Virus record (IMG/VR): IMGVR_UViG_3300008963_000001
Coordinates: 64,678 to 128,677 of that record
Direction: 5' to 3' (one strand)
DNA: 64,000 nucleotides
DNA from: a virus
Below, piece by piece: positions 249 to 12,630 of the stretch. Numbering within the stretch: the stretch's first letter is position 1; the number at the start of each line of letters is the position of its first letter. A program made the position numbers and the translations under genes. The notes below the pieces were generated by a model. That model saw nothing but the letters and a program-made list of their open reading frames with translations. It ran no database searches and was not told the DNA's origin.

Positions 249-518
249 ATGAGCACAGAAAGCCACGACAAAATGATCGAAGCATTCCAGCAATACTTCA
301 AGTGGCAAACTAATTTTGAATATAAAGGCTCTGACGAAGCAGGTATCAAGGCACGTTATTGGCTATCACAGATACGCAACTGTGCGTCCGAACGCAGAAA
401 AGAAATACAGGCAAAGCGAGAACAACGAAAGGCAGCCAGAAAAGGCATGATAGGAAGGCCGAAACAAGTAAGTAAGTCTGATGACAAAGTGGACATATCG
501 GGGAAAGGAAATCAATGA
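249..518 (+). CDS. Small basic hypothetical protein
   Basis: 89-aa ORF coupled to the upstream stop (TAAATG); Lys/Arg-rich C-terminus. Confidence 0.7.
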   Translation: MSTESHDKMIEAFQQYFKWQTNFEYKGSDEAGIKARYWLSQIRNCASERRKEIQAKREQRKAARKGMIGRPKQVSKSDDKVDISGKGNQ

Positions 519-936
519 GCTTCCAAACGAGTGCGAAGGCTTTGTCTATCTTATCACTAATCTTACCAACAATAAAAAATACATAGGCAAAAAACTAGCA
601 CGTTTTAAAACTTCAAAACCACCTCTCAAAGGCAAAAAAAATCGCAGGCGCGGATATAAAGAAAGTGACTGGAGAGACTATTGGGGATCTTCAGATCATC
701 TTTTAGCAGATGTAGAAACACTAGGCCCCGAAAAATTTACTAGAGAAATTTTACATTTTTGTCCCAGCAGAGGCGTCTTATCATATCTAGAGGCTAAAGA
801 ACAGTTTGACAGGCGAGTATTAGAAACCGACGAGTATTACAACGGTATAATCAATGTTCGCGTAGGCAGTTCAAGGCAACTTTCAGAAACACTACAACAA
901 ATATATGGAAATCGTCCACCGCAGTTGGACGATTAA
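481..936 (+). CDS. GIY-YIG family nuclease (Seg/EndoII-like)
   Basis: GFVYLITNLTNNKKYIGKK matches the GIY-YIG signature, followed by a conserved-type Arg region and a later Glu (YLEAKEQ). Confidence 0.8.
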   Translation: MTKWTYRGKEINELPNECEGFVYLITNLTNNKKYIGKKLARFKTSKPPLKGKKNRRRGYKESDWRDYWGSSDHLLADVETLGPEKFTREILHFCPSRGVLSYLEAKEQFDRRVLETDEYYNGIINVRVGSSRQLSETLQQIYGNRPPQLDD

Positions 937-1466
937 CACCGTCAATTAAGCCCCCACCGGCGCTGTTATGGTGGACTTAGACCTGGCCAGCTACGTGAGC
1001 ACAGGGAATTGAATTTCCGTTTGGCGGCGGAGACTCGCATCACTACCCGAAAGGATGATGATTGGATATGCCTAATTAACCAATTTGATGCGTTTATAGA
1101 AGAATTCATTCGAGGCTAAGGACGAGATAATCAAATCTCAGGTTTTGTATGCAAGACAGCATTTGTGTACAAGGCTGCCGTTGGACATAAGAAACTCTAT
1201 CGGAACGAGCAGGTACCGGCCAACCGCCTGTGAGGTGTGCTATAAAGAAAGTGCATTACAGTTGTATGCATTGTTTATAAAACATCATAGTTCCAATGCT
1301 GTGGTGACTGTGCTACTCAGATAATGCGCAGAACAGTGAGCCCCGCAACGGGCTCTATGTGACCGCTTAATCTAGATAATACTTAAACTGCTTCGCAGTT
1401 AGAATATTGTTTCATTAAAAAAGCATTGAGCGCAAGCGAAAATGCAAACGATCTTTAGATCGTTTA
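937..1466 (+). ncRNA. Candidate large structured non-coding RNA (class unassigned)
   Basis: ORF-free gap with more than 10 helices, including long-range 998-1004/1308-1314 and 1023-1028/1174-1179. GNRA loops (GAAA 1049-1052, GCAA 1432-1435) and G-U pairs work only on the + strand. Confidence 0.6.
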
Positions 1467-1470
1467 TTAA
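1446..1470. terminator. Perfect 8-bp hairpin between convergent transcription units, probable bidirectional terminator
   Basis: AAACGATC-TTTA-GATCGTTT (1446-1465), just past the stop of the minus-strand ORF at 1467-1469. Confidence 0.55.
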
Positions 1471-1700
1471 AAGAAAGGCATCTGTGTTTTCTTTGTTGTT
1501 TCCAAATTGTCTTTGATTATCTCTGAAACAATTTGTCTTTCTTCGTAGCTCATATTCATGCCCTCGCTATAGGATAGTCCTCTCATATACCAACACATTT
1601 TAAGAACTTCCTTTTTGATGTTCCGAACATCTTTATCCATATTTTTAGCGATCTCTTGGATCTCTGATTCCGGAAGTCTCAGGATCCTGGCGCGAAAAAA
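1467..1700 (-). CDS. gp51-like small tail/baseplate assembly ORF, probably expressed as a -1 frameshift extension of the upstream gene (own ATG at 1640 would give 57 aa)
   Basis: Manual translation FFRARILRLPESEIQEIAKNMDKDVRNIKKEVLKMCWYMRG...EERQIVSEIIKDNLETTKKTQMPFF*. Not in the ORF track. Confidence 0.7.
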   Translation of the reverse strand, partial: FFRARILRLPESEIQEIAKNMDKDVRNIKKEVLKMCWYMRGLSYSEGMNMSYEERQIVSEIIKDNLETTKKTQMPFF

Positions 1701-2536
1701 GTCGTTTGATCCATTGTTACAGGCATGTCATAGTTGTGCTCACAGGAATTACAGGTTACAGGAATAACTTTAGCGCCACCGTTGCCTTTCATGTTTGTGA
1801 TGTGATCTGAAATAGTTTGAAACACTTCTTTGTCTGCGTTGTTTACGAACTCTTGTATCATGTCTGGATCACTGACAGAACCTTGAGGCGTTTGTATTTC
1901 TCGAATACAACCTGCTATAACATCTACGGTCATTGCGGTAAGTTTTACAAAGCTCTCGCCGAACATTTCTATTTTTTGCTCGTCTGAAATGGTATCGTCG
2001 TTGATCACACTGAAAATTCTCTGCTGCTCGAACGTTTTGAGATTGGTTTTTGTTATTTCGCTGTAGGAGTATGGCTTTATGTGGATAGTAAGTTCGTCCA
2101 GTTGTATTACTGATTGATACTGGAACTGAGCAGTTTCCGCCAGCCAATTTGTGAGATTGATAGCAAATTCGTTGTCTGCTTCGCATGAAGGACAAGTACT
2201 GCTTACTTCCATGTCTTCGCCGTAGGTTGCGATTCTTATGGCTATAAGAGCGGCATCTACGTCGATTGACGGCATCTGCCACGGGTCTTTTATAGCTGGG
2301 ATGCAGCTTTTGATTACTTCTACAGTGCTTTGTCCGCTGAGTAGTGCGTCGGGTGTCTTAAACATCAATTCGTCTTTTGCAGTCATTGCAAAAACTGCAT
2401 ATTTCCCGTCCTGAGACAGATCCAATGTGCCTTCTGGATAGAATTCTCCTCGGCTGGGTAGATCAATATAGATCTTAGGCTGTCTATAATACTGTGCTAG
2501 CGGGTTGGGGTTTGTCAGTCCTTCAAATTCGGCCAT
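1679..2536 (-). CDS. gp26-like baseplate hub / tail assembly chaperone
   Basis: YYRQPKIYIDLPSRG, TAKDELMFKTPDALLSG, CPSC and CNSC Zn-type pairs, FF near the C-terminus. ATG 2536 preceded by GGAGAT (2541-2546). Confidence 0.7.
   Translation of the reverse strand: MAEFEGLTNPNPLAQYYRQPKIYIDLPSRGEFYPEGTLDLSQDGKYAVFAMTAKDELMFKTPDALLSGQSTVEVIKSCIPAIKDPWQMPSIDVDAALIAIRIATYGEDMEVSSTCPSCEADNEFAINLTNWLAETAQFQYQSVIQLDELTIHIKPYSYSEITKTNLKTFEQQRIFSVINDDTISDEQKIEMFGESFVKLTAMTVDVIAGCIREIQTPQGSVSDPDMIQEFVNNADKEVFQTISDHITNMKGNGGAKVIPVTCNSCEHNYDMPVTMDQTTFFAPGS
1694..1700 (-). other. Slippery heptamer T TTT TTC (putative programmed -1 frameshift site)
   Basis: In frame (acT TTT TTC) four codons before the TGA; the -1 frame stays open for 77 codons. 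Confidence 0.6.
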
Positions 2537-12094: not shown

Positions 12095-12186
12095 ATAAAA
12101 TTGTCTACAAGTGTGCCGCCTACCAGTGGTGGACTTATGCGGATACCCACCGCGTAGACCTAGAACGTCACAACAAGGAGAAACAA
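12092..12186 (+). promoter_or_regulatory. Late promoter box plus structured 5' leader (candidate cis-regulatory RNA)
   Basis: TAAATA 12092-12097; stems 12116-12120/12128-12132 and 12136-12142/12150-12156; alternative 12103-12108/12154-12159; SD AAGGAG at 12175-12180. Confidence 0.45.
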
Positions 12187-12630
12187 ATGGGACGCCCGAT
12201 ACAAAAAAGAAAAATTGGCGCAGGTGAAGCCAAAATACAAGTAACATCAGCTTATTTTACAGGTGATGGATCTGCCACCACAGGTGGTACTGCTACTCCT
12301 CTTTATATTGAGAGACAAAGAAGCTCGCGGAGATTTAAAGTAACACAGGTAGGAACTGGCAAGACCGAAGTTCTACTTATGACGCCAAAAGCAACTCCAG
12401 CAGAAGGCGAATTCAGCATTCAAATTACACTAGATAGTGTTGCAGATACAAATCTAGATGATTCGTCACTTTACTATGCATATCGTTTACACAATAGAAC
12501 CGTTAGTTGTTGCCCTGACGATGATGAGTCAAATATGATCCACCTTCCATATACATTACAAGACGGCGAAAATGATCAGGAACTGTTAGCTGACGGATTT
12601 ATTTTAGCAAACATTGACACGCAGGCCTAA
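12187..12630 (+). CDS. Putative virion structural protein
   Basis: 147 aa, strong SD, first gene of the baseplate/fiber operon. Confidence 0.6.
   Translation: MGRPIQKRKIGAGEAKIQVTSAYFTGDGSATTGGTATPLYIERQRSSRRFKVTQVGTGKTEVLLMTPKATPAEGEFSIQITLDSVADTNLDDSSLYYAYRLHNRTVSCCPDDDESNMIHLPYTLQDGENDQELLADGFILANIDTQA

What the first reader, a model, noticed from the sequence alone, without database searches (positions are those of the whole stretch)
937..1466. ~530-nt ORF-free segment that folds like a large multi-domain ncRNA
Seen: this is the only long non-coding gap in an otherwise wall-to-wall coding window. Long-range helices: AGCACAG 998-1004/CTGTGCT 1308-1314, and GGCGGC 1023-1028/GCTGCC 1174-1179. 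Nested junction: CGCATCA 1036-1042/TGATGCG 1086-1092 encloses a CC-GAAA-GG hairpin and ATTGG/CCAAT. Further stems at 1124-1139, 1145-1172 (two G-U pairs), 1210-1230, 1252-1270, 1338-1355, 1386-1400 and 1423-1445 (GC-GCAA-GC). The heptamer AGATAAT recurs three times (1125, 1319, 1374). GNRA loops and G-U pairs indicate the + strand. Established: phages carry large ornate ncRNAs of unknown function (GOLLD, ROOL). Inference: this is such an RNA, known or new; I found no tRNA, tmRNA, RNase P or group I/II intron signature.
Basis: partly seen in the sequence, partly recalled or inferred. Interest (0 to 1): 0.85.

Follow-up and report, generated by a model that had tools for sequence, protein, structure and literature searches.

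The report
Large pseudoknotted phage RNA with twin heptamers
The gap holds a real RNA gene of about 530 nt from an uncultured giant T4-like phage: its first 150 nt are the known Polynucleobacter-1 motif, and the rest is an undescribed, heavily knotted domain carrying two 7-letter words that always stay identical to each other, for no reason yet known.

Summary
Window 939-1466 (+) is one conserved, ORF-free structured RNA.

- **Known part:** 949-1095 is Rfam RF01718 (Polynucleobacter-1), at 107.8 bits against a cut-off of 37.
- **New part:** 1096-1466 matches no Rfam family but is conserved with the known part.
- **Family size:** I collected at least 255 distinct relatives from IMG/VR phage contigs. 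None came from a cultured phage.
- **Structure:** on 78 full-length members, an 83-pair structure is 93% paired. Shuffled controls give 76% and slid controls 35-44%. 67 pairs show changes on both sides. The new domain has three covariation-supported pseudoknot helices.
the two long-range helices are not conserved. The local stems are.
- **Context:** the RNA starts 3 nt after the stop codon of a small GIY-YIG nuclease gene and ends at a hairpin shared with the converging baseplate genes. The nuclease link is synteny, not dependence.
- **Twin words:** A-CUC-AGAUAAU (1315-1325) and A-UCU-AGAUAAU (1370-1380). At least 18 different 7-letter words occur across the family, and nearly always the same word sits in both copies. 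No complement in cis, ORF or promoter role was found.

Function is unknown. My best guess is an RNA scaffold that presents two identical sites to one partner. Other first-stage notes of this scan flagged this same stretch.

The parts
481..936 (+). Context: 151-aa GIY-YIG (SegE-like) nuclease gene whose stop codon (934-936) lies 3 nt before the RNA.
   Evidence: Pfam PF19835 at 1.5e-33 and PHROG 447. Catalytic-type motifs are visible in the translation. A homolog sits directly upstream of the RNA in almost all loci with enough flank.
939..943 (+). 5' leader strand of pseudoknot PK1 (CCGUC), pairing with loop 1023-1027 (GGCGG) of hairpin P3.
   Evidence: MI pair 942/1024 shows GC:56, CG:14, UA:4. 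All 5 pairs of helix 1 show changes on both sides. Overall 73% paired, lowered by MAFFT misalignment of two leader types, ACGG/CCGU and CGCC/GGCG.
949..1095 (+). 5' domain, Rfam RF01718 Polynucleobacter-1. P1 954-958/970-974; P2 about 982-988/996-1005; P3 1016-1019/1028-1031; P4 1037-1042/1086-1091 enclosing P5 1047-1048/1053-1054 (GAAA loop) and P6 1060-1065/1080-1085.
   Evidence: cmscan gives 107.8 bits (cut-off 37), E 2e-22, over the full model 1-141. Helices 2-7 are 85-99% paired with many compensatory changes.
1096..1123 (+). Linker between the domains, with a conserved AGGCUAAGGA-like stretch (1113-1122).
   Evidence: Conserved columns in A2 and A3. A possible pairing of AGGC with the P6 loop GCCU was not settled.
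1124..1139 (+). P7 hairpin (GAGAU/AUCUC). Here it contains a third AGAUAAU, shared only with the closest relative L007.
   Evidence: Helices 8-9 are 90-98% paired with changes on both sides. GGG/CCC replaces the stem in relatives.
1143..1174 (+). P8 hairpin (1145-1149/1168-1172 and 1151-1154/1163-1166). Its loop 1156-1162 (ACAGCAU) forms pseudoknot PK2.
   Evidence: Helix 10 has 11 of 11 pairs with changes on both sides and is 95.8% paired.
1180..1230 (+). Pseudoknot core. P9 1180-1184/1220-1224 is interleaved with P11 1210-1214/1226-1230 (H-type). P10 5' strand is 1203-1206. Contains the nearly invariant GGUACCGG...ACCGCC.
   Evidence: Helix 12 is 98.2% paired (CG:39/UA:39 and GC:45/AU:29). 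Helix 14 is 95.4% paired. Helix 13 is 92% paired with 4 of 4 pairs compensatory.
1232..1288 (+). Variable expansion hairpin. Absent from most members: L007 has a related one, and L082 and L089 carry insertions of their own at this site.
   Evidence: The alignment gap in A2 and A3.
1290..1302 (+). 3' strands of P10 (1290-1293) and of PK2 (1296-1302, AUGCUGU).
   Evidence: PK2 helix 11 has 7 of 7 pairs with changes on both sides and is 99.4% paired.
1315..1325 (+). Twin word 1: A-CUC-AGAUAAU.
   Evidence: The word is the same as in twin 2 in almost every family member.
1338..1355 (+). P12 hairpin between the twins (GAGCCC/GGGCUC). It is followed by a conserved GUGAC (1359-1363).
   Evidence: Helix 15 is 89.5% paired with changes on both sides.
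1370..1380 (+). Twin word 2: A-UCU-AGAUAAU.
1386..1400 (+). P13 hairpin (CUGC-UUC-GCAG core).
   Evidence: Helix 16 is 93.9% paired, UA:40/CG:21.
1423..1445 (+). P14: outer stem 1423-1427/1441-1445 with an inner GC-GCAA-GC hairpin (1430-1437).
   Evidence: Helices 17-18 are 85-96% paired with changes on both sides.
1445..1466 (.). Terminal hairpin (ACGAUC-UUUA-GAUCGU), the likely 3' end of the RNA. It also serves as terminator for the converging ORF 1467-1640.
   Evidence: Terminator-like site. The stem covaries (AU:36/GC:31). Relatives have a U-run after it on the + strand.

Best explanation
**What it is (about 0.9)**
- Window 939-1466 (+) encodes one member of a large family of phage RNAs of about 450-530 nt.
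- The known Polynucleobacter-1 motif (RF01718) is only its 5' domain.
- A previously undescribed 3' domain follows. It contains hairpins P7 and P8 and an H-type pseudoknot (P9/P11). Two further long-range helices are P10 and PK2, which pairs the P8 loop with 1296-1302. After these come a tandem module of twin word - hairpin - GUGAC - twin word - hairpin, a GNRA hairpin and a terminal hairpin.

**How it is made (inferred, about 0.6)**
- It is transcribed rightward as the last unit of the gp46 / small ORF / nuclease operon. No sigma-70-like promoter was found.
- The RNA begins 3 nt after the stop codon and ends at the bidirectional terminator hairpin.

**How it works (inferred, about 0.25)**
- The pseudoknotted body is a rigid scaffold. 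It displays two identical single-stranded 7-nt words about 55 nt apart.
- The RNA therefore most likely acts by engaging two copies, or a dimer, of one sequence-reading partner. Alternatively the two words contact each other. That would make it a scaffold or decoy RNA.
- It is unlikely to act as an antisense RNA, a coding RNA or a cis-regulator.
For: - Rfam match at 107.8 bits.
- Whole-length homology in relatives found through the neighbouring baseplate-hub gene. All such loci with enough flank carry it.
- Covariation on 78 members:
  - 93.3% paired against 76.4% in shuffles
  - 1077 cells changed on both sides against 297 in shuffles
  - score 0.497 against at most 0.086 in slid controls
  - PK2, P9 and P10 are 92-99% paired, with 14 of their 16 pairs changed on both sides
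- Strand: G-U pairs and a better fold on the + strand.
- Members found through the 5' motif alone have the twin module 145-362 nt downstream.
- No promoter and only the terminal terminator-like site were found in 700-1800.
- Twin words are identical in 128 of 128 and 118 of 120 pattern matches that left them free to differ.
- Nine further words turned up in the set chosen by the 5' motif.
- There were at least 16 joint A/G flips on a tree built without those columns. 8 of 8 independent supported pairs flipped the same way.
- The words have no complement in cis.
Against: - No expression data.
- No helix supported by covariation bridges the 5' and 3' domains. The 3' domain also occurs with other 5' domains (classes B and C). 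'One RNA' therefore rests on adjacency.
- The partner of the twin words is unknown.
- Frequent joint flips are hard to reconcile with a slowly evolving protein reader.
- Recombination moving both words as one 60-nt block could inflate the count of independent flips. Against this, the sequence between the words is only weakly linked to the word state.
- Ascertainment: two of my patterns fixed the flanks ACUC and AUCU.
Confidence: 0.6

Rival explanations
1. The RNA is the partner of the nuclease encoded just upstream. It would act as guide, scaffold or regulator in a nuclease-RNA particle, in the way OMEGA RNAs serve IscB and TnpB.
For: - A GIY-YIG gene ends 0-30 nt before the RNA in nearly all class-A loci.
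- Weinberg 2010 noted the same neighbour.
- In L058 an unrelated PD-(D/E)XK nuclease (PF24608, 2.5e-29) sits in exactly that place.
- The protein has a basic insert.
Against: - Phage Melnitz has a 78%-identical protein but no such RNA anywhere in its genome.
- Homologs in P-SSM2, S-SRM01, ACP17 and phiM12 have no large non-coding neighbour.
- In class B, three unrelated gene families are inserted between the nuclease gene and the RNA.
- Proteins 72-82% identical to the window's go with a different RNA class and a different word.
- The pattern fits a homing-type nuclease parked next to a conserved gene equally well.
Confidence: 0.15
2. The region is not one RNA but several adjacent elements: the Polynucleobacter-1 small RNA, a separate 3' RNA, and terminators.
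For: - The 3' domain is found with at least two other 5' domains.
- Rfam models only 141 nt.
- No bridging helix has been shown.
Against: - Constant order and spacing hold in all class-A members.
- No promoter-like or terminator-like site lies between the domains.
- Members found by the 5' motif that have enough downstream sequence carry the 3' module wherever inspected. 33 were found automatically and the 8 misses I inspected were regex false negatives.
Confidence: 0.15
3. The twin words act at the DNA level as iteron-like or operator-like direct repeats, for example at a replication origin next to the recombination genes. The RNA structure would be secondary.
For: - Repeats identical within an element but differing between relatives are typical of iterons.
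- The locus follows the gp46-type recombination genes.
Against: - The surrounding sequence shows strand-specific RNA covariation with G-U pairs and pseudoknots.
- At least 16 joint flips would each need a matching change in a protein reader.
- The word is not enriched elsewhere in the phage.
Confidence: 0.08
4. It is a 3'-UTR element acting in cis on the upstream nuclease mRNA, controlling its stability or expression.
For: The RNA starts 3 nt after the stop codon and no promoter of its own was found.
Against: - 500 nt with three or more pseudoknots is far beyond known 3' stabilisers.
- The RNA stays while the upstream gene changes.
- Homologous nuclease genes do without it.
Confidence: 0.1
5. 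It is a translational bypass element like T4 gene 60, with matched take-off and landing words, a stop codon after the take-off site and a hairpin in a gap of about 50 nt.
For: - The words read sense-sense-stop (CUC/UCU-RSA-URA) in most variants.
- The gap is 47-68 nt and contains hairpin P12.
- The setting is a T4-like phage.
Against: - No conserved ORF runs into the first word. The open frame upstream has a median of 14 codons and a range of 2-75.
- The landing word is itself followed by the stop codon.
- Some words lack a stop codon (AGCAGAA, GACGAAA).
- RNA helices cover the supposed coding part.
Confidence: 0.02

Closest known systems
Polynucleobacter-1 RNA motif (Rfam RF01718; Weinberg et al. 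2010, PMC2864571)
   Same: Window 949-1095 matches the full model far above threshold, with the same five-helix layout. It has the same gene neighbour, a homolog of P-SSM2 PSSM2_218, and the same aquatic metagenome source.
   Different: The published motif is 141 nt, was built from 16 sequences, was filed as a possible cis-regulator or sRNA, and was 'not detected in any sequenced purified phage'. Here it is the 5' third of an RNA of about 500 nt on phage contigs. A leader-loop pseudoknot and a roughly 370-nt 3' domain are absent from the model.
GOLLD and ROOL large ornate RNAs of phages and prophages (cryo-EM: PMC12286853)
   Same: Large size, many helices and pseudoknots, phage-borne, unknown function, GNRA loops.
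   Different: No sequence or model similarity. This RNA is smaller and has no tRNA neighbours. Oligomerisation was not tested. Nothing like twin identical words came up in what I read of those RNAs.
Tandem-module RNAs such as the guanidine-II (mini-ykkC) or glycine riboswitches (from my own knowledge)
   Same: Two similar modules in tandem that are thought to work together.
   Different: In those RNAs the shared motif is the same in all members. Here the word differs between members but matches within a member. The position, at the end of an operon facing a converging gene, does not fit a riboswitch.
T4 gene 60 bypass cassette with MobA (from my own knowledge)
   Same: T4-like phage, matched short words about 50 nt apart, a stop codon after the first, a hairpin in between, and a nuclease gene next door.
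   Different: There is no reading frame into or out of the element.

Membership tests
Rfam RF01718 Polynucleobacter-1 | Covariance-model score at or above the gathering cut-off (37 bits) over the whole model | tested here: met
   107.8 bits, model positions 1-141 of 141, window 949-1095 +.
Rfam RF01718 Polynucleobacter-1 | Consensus helices kept with compensatory changes in relatives | tested here: met
   Helices 2-7 are 85-99% paired, with many changes on both sides.
Rfam RF01718 Polynucleobacter-1 | Lies downstream of a GOS11034 / PSSM2_218-type gene (Weinberg 2010 supplement) | tested here: met
   The upstream protein matches P-SSM2 PSSM2_218 by tblastn (37% identity, 7e-15).
GOLLD / ROOL | Match to the Rfam models | tested here: not met
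   No match even at E <= 10 on 800-1700.
Group I / group II intron | Match to the intron models, and interruption of a host gene | tested here: not met
   No Rfam match. The flanks are a complete nuclease gene and a converging ORF.
tRNA / tmRNA | tRNA-like domain detected | tested here: not met
   ARAGORN finds none in the window. No Rfam match.
Programmed translational bypass (gene 60 type) | Conserved ORF reading into the take-off word and out of the landing word | tested here: not met
   Upstream open frames have a median of 14 and 5 codons. The landing word is followed by a stop codon.
Nuclease-guide RNA systems (OMEGA-like) | Obligate co-occurrence of the nuclease family and the RNA | tested here: not met
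   Close and distant homologs of the nuclease lack the RNA. The RNA occurs with another nuclease or with other genes directly upstream.
CRISPR mini-array / solitary repeat units | Repeats of 23 nt or more with a variable spacer | tested here: not met
   The repeat is about 13 nt. The 'spacer' is a conserved hairpin plus GUGAC.

The most novel reading that the evidence does not exclude
The two words obey a self-matching rule because they read each other or are copied from one another. Examples would be a parallel homo-pairing contact, or a templated jump between the two ends of a roughly 55-nt unit. Either would be a kind of RNA constraint with no described precedent in natural structured RNAs. 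It would make this a new functional class of phage RNA, possibly catalytic or templating.
Probability: 0.15. Interest if true: 0.9.

Novelty: new variant of a known kind. Interest (0 to 1): 0.68.

Why it matters
- **Redefines a known motif.** Polynucleobacter-1 has been an orphan Rfam motif for 16 years. It now appears as one domain of a large, multi-pseudoknot RNA on phage contigs. Their structural genes are T4-like, and the largest contigs reach 354 kb.
- **A strong target for structure work.** That makes it as good a candidate for cryo-EM or probing as GOLLD, ROOL or OLE.
- **A sharp, testable anomaly.** The twin-word rule is an identity covariation: not Watson-Crick, seen with at least 18 words and many joint flips. 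Standard covariation tools would not report it. Explaining it should reveal the partner or mechanism of the RNA.

Tried and rejected
- **Known RNA classes:** GOLLD, ROOL, intron, RNase P, 6S and tmRNA all rejected (Rfam at E <= 10, ARAGORN).
- **Twin words as a phage-wide promoter or motif:**
  - YYYRGATAAT occurs 6 times against 3.1 expected.
  - AGATAAT occurs 21 times against 14.8 ± 4 expected.
  - The extra 11-mer copy in the genome lies inside a gene on the opposite strand.
- **Complement of the words in cis:**
  - A perfect 7-mer complement occurs in 14 of 225 sequences, at scattered places.
  - A 5-mer peak upstream turned out to be the YYN codons of the nuclease gene.
  - Allowing G-U pairs gives a weak excess only in the already paired, AU-rich P8.
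- **Antiparallel helix between the two modules,** or a fixed closing stem around each word: none found.
- **Coding or bypass reading:** rejected.
- **tmRNA-like 'GCA AAC GAU' tag:** it lies in the covarying terminator stem, so it is coincidental.
- **Resemblances to T-box (GGUACCG), box C/D, CsrA GGA sites, boxA and type III antitoxin repeats:** considered from memory only. None survives the variation seen in the words.
- **Cultured relatives:** blastn of class A and class C RNAs against 50,697 phage records found nothing. Melnitz and the syntenic PA5oct locus lack the RNA.
- **Cellular genomes:** only 5 of 120 pattern hits are real. Four of them are contigs of 1.5-2.4 kb in metagenome bins, so they are probably phage DNA. 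I did not look up the record behind the fifth (L266).
- **Not settled:** pairing of the P6 loop (GCCU) with the linker (AGGC).

Full report
**1. The observation**

Region 937-1466 lies between a + strand ORF (481-936) and a - strand ORF (1467-1640). It contains only short ORFs of 36-59 aa and is the largest gap between substantial ORFs in the window.

As RNA, the + strand folds to -159.6 kcal/mol. That is z = -2.89 against dinucleotide shuffles, with 0 of 100 shuffles as good. The - strand gives z = -1.44.

No sigma-70-like promoter is found in 700-1800. The only terminator-like site is the hairpin at 1445-1466.

**2. A known motif at the 5' end**

Rfam 15 places RF01718 (Polynucleobacter-1) at 949-1095 on the + strand. 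The score is 107.8 bits against a cut-off of 37, over the full model. Nothing else in 800-1700 matches any family, even at E <= 10.

The only paper in the library that names the motif is Weinberg et al. 2010. Its supplement makes these points:
- The motif has 16 sequences from fresh water or estuary and from one Polynucleobacter genome.
- Most copies lie downstream of GOS11034 genes 'with possible homology to PSSM2_218'.
- It was not detected in any sequenced purified phage.

**3. The setting**

The window is part of a 128,677-base IMG/VR virus record that CheckV rates 36% complete. The genes around the RNA are T-even-like:
- the end of a gp46/SbcC-like gene
- an 89-aa ORF
- a 151-aa GIY-YIG protein (PF19835, 1.5e-33)
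- on the other strand a small ORF and a baseplate hub
- then a large structural protein and a T4-type portal

The portal's best cultured matches are jumbo phages of the PA5oct type, at about 51% identity. Some RNA-bearing contigs reach 262-354 kb. The window has no tRNA or tmRNA.

**4. The whole gap is conserved, not just the Rfam part**

- A first relative, L007, aligns over the entire roughly 530 nt at 86% column identity. It shows visible compensatory changes and the same gene order.
- Loci fetched through the baseplate-hub protein do not depend on the RNA sequence. All of them with enough flank carry the RNA.
Two targeted the 3' domain and one the 5' domain.
- In total I hold at least 255 distinct family members.
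- About three quarters of the first set match a profile over the full length. About a quarter match only the 3' half. Those have other 5' domains (classes B and C) and no RF01718 match at threshold.
- Members chosen by the 5' motif alone have the 3' module 145-362 nt downstream.
- The genome collection gave only 5 real hits among 120. Four are tiny contigs in metagenome bins; the record behind the fifth (L266) was not looked up.
- No cultured phage has the RNA.

**5. Structure**

I ran mutual information and a helix search on a MAFFT alignment of 78 full-length class-A members (A3). I then counted a named 83-pair structure on it.

| Measure | Observed | Shuffles | Slid controls |
|---|---|---|---|
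| Cells paired | 93.3% | 76.4% | 35-44% |
| Pairs with changes on both sides | 67 of 83 | about 51 | 31-41 |
| Cells with changes on both sides | 1077 | 297 | 115-195 |
| Covariation score | 0.497 | 0.187 | at most 0.086 |

None of 500 shuffles reached the observed value on any measure.

In window coordinates the structure is:
- **5' domain**
  - PK1 939-943/1023-1027, pairing the leader with the P3 loop
  - P1 954-958/970-974
  - P2 about 982-988/996-1005
  - P3 1016-1019/1028-1031
  - P4 1037-1042/1086-1091, enclosing P5 (GAAA loop) and P6 1060-1065/1080-1085
- **3' domain, first half**
  - P7 1124-1128/1135-1139
  - P8 1145-1154/1163-1172
  - PK2 1156-1162/1296-1302 (7 of 7 pairs compensatory, 99.4% paired)
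  - P9 1180-1184/1220-1224, interleaved with P11 1210-1214/1226-1230 as an H-type pseudoknot
  - P10 1203-1206/1290-1293
- **3' domain, second half**
  - P12 1338-1343/1350-1355
  - P13 around 1388-1398
  - P14 1423-1445, with a GCAA inner hairpin
  - terminal hairpin 1445-1466

Segment 1232-1288 is an expansion absent from most members. Invariant or frequent G-U pairs fix the strand as +.

Their local stems pass.

**6. The twin words**

The window has A-CUC-AGAUAAU at 1315-1325 and A-UCU-AGAUAAU at 1370-1380. Hairpin P12 and a conserved GUGAC lie between them, and another GUGAC-like stretch lies before the first word.

Evidence that the two words are held identical:
- One pattern left position 0 free (A or G) in both copies. 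All 128 matches were AA or GG.
- A second pattern left three positions free in each copy. 118 of 120 matches had the same word twice. One of the two exceptions looks like a chance hit in coding sequence.
- The set chosen by the 5' motif added nine more words. One member has a near-twin, GACGAAA/GACGAAG, so the identity is not absolute.
- At least 18 different words are now known.
- I built a tree of the 78 class-A RNAs without these columns. Position 0 changes at least 16 times, in both copies together. 8 of 8 independent supported pairs go the same way, p = 0.008.
- Positions -5 and -6 also tend to match between the copies. The triplets CUC and UCU next to the words stay different, which argues against simple gene conversion.

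What the words are not:
- They do not pair with a complement in cis.
- They do not pair with each other's module in an antiparallel helix.
- They are not ORF ends. Open frames upstream are short and variable, and the 47-68 nt spacing shows no mod-3 preference.
- They are not a motif used elsewhere in the phage.

Caveats:
- Two of my patterns fixed the flanks.
- Recombination could move both words as one block. However, the sequence between them is only weakly linked to the word state.

**7. The nuclease neighbour**

A homolog of the GIY-YIG protein ends 0-30 nt before the RNA in nearly all class-A loci. Its divergence roughly tracks that of the hub protein.

The link is not obligate:
- Methylophilales phage Melnitz has a 78%-identical protein in another context and no such RNA.
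- P-SSM2, S-SRM01, ACP17 and phiM12 have homologs without a non-coding neighbour.
- In L058 a PD-(D/E)XK nuclease (PF24608) replaces the GIY-YIG gene at the same spot.
- In class B, three unrelated families of unknown proteins sit between the nuclease gene and the RNA.
- Proteins 72-82% identical to the window's accompany class B or C RNAs with other words.

I read this as long-standing synteny. It may reflect a homing-type nuclease parked beside a conserved gene, or a recombination nuclease in its operon. I do not read it as a nuclease-guide pair.

**8. Mechanism**

*Shown:*
- A conserved, strand-specific, pseudoknotted RNA structure spans 939-1466.
- The two words are held identical by selection.

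*Inferred:*
- The RNA is co-transcribed from the upstream operon and terminates at the shared hairpin.
- It is a single two-domain RNA.
- It acts as a scaffold presenting two identical sites to one partner, or the two sites contact each other.

I could not obtain expression data. Other first-stage notes of this scan flagged the same stretch and proposed a nuclease-RNA system. My tests weaken that reading.

**9. Verdict**

The RNA is real. It is partly known (the RF01718 domain) and largely new: the 3' domain, the phage assignment, the size of the family and the twin-word rule. Its function is unknown.

Noticed in passing
window 12116-12189 (+): Rfam RF02980 'freshwater-2' RNA, just above threshold (51.3 against 49.9 bits). 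It ends at the start of ORF 12187-12630, so it may be a 5' leader element in the head-gene block.
   Followed up: no
L058:3963-4484 (+): In this relative a 173-aa PD-(D/E)XK nuclease (PF24608; PHROG 244, 'RusA-like resolvase') occupies the place of the GIY-YIG gene directly before the RNA. This is a non-orthologous nuclease swap at one spot.
   Followed up: partly
L047:8190-9017, L133:4570-5400, L099:7780-8556; L075:536-1606, L099:6736-7779; L112:2219-3208, L028:7789-8772: Three unrelated families of 260-356-aa proteins have no Pfam or PHROG match where tested. They are inserted between the nuclease gene and the class-B RNA, so that junction is a hot spot for gene insertion.
   Followed up: partly
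L022:6536-6961 (-), L026, L071, L028: RNA classes B and C share the 3' module but start with another 5' domain (GUUUGRUCGAGGUAGCUCGA...), which is not RF01718. Class C uses words such as ACAUGAA and is at least as abundant as class A.
   Followed up: partly
L268 (Melnitz MZ577097.1 30449-30889): A cultured marine OM43 phage encodes a GIY-YIG protein 78% identical to the window's. The identity is far higher than for the structural genes, and the gene sits after nrdB. This suggests the nuclease gene moves between phages.
   Followed up: partly
L480:456-1968 (PA5oct NC_071039.1 about 75.7-77.2 kb): The syntenic region of jumbo phage PA5oct, left of the hub and portal genes, is about 1.5 kb with only tiny annotated ORFs and strong promoter-like boxes. 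It is not homologous to this RNA but could hold other non-coding RNAs.
   Followed up: no
L184, L189, L215, L181 (genome contigs): Four of the five true hits in the bacterial genome collection are contigs of 1.5-2.4 kb in metagenome bins. They are probably phage fragments mis-binned into MAGs. The record behind the fifth hit (L266) was not looked up.
   Followed up: no
window 1467-1710 (-): The small ORF 1467-1640 after the baseplate-hub gene is conserved in relatives (tblastn). Another first-stage note proposes a -1 frameshift here. I did not examine it.
   Followed up: no
window 1046 and 1056: In P5 and its flanks, C...U and U...C swap together (UC:50, CU:28) along with the loop type (GNRA tetraloop against UUAACA hexaloop). 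This looks like an exchange of a tertiary-contact module.
   Followed up: no
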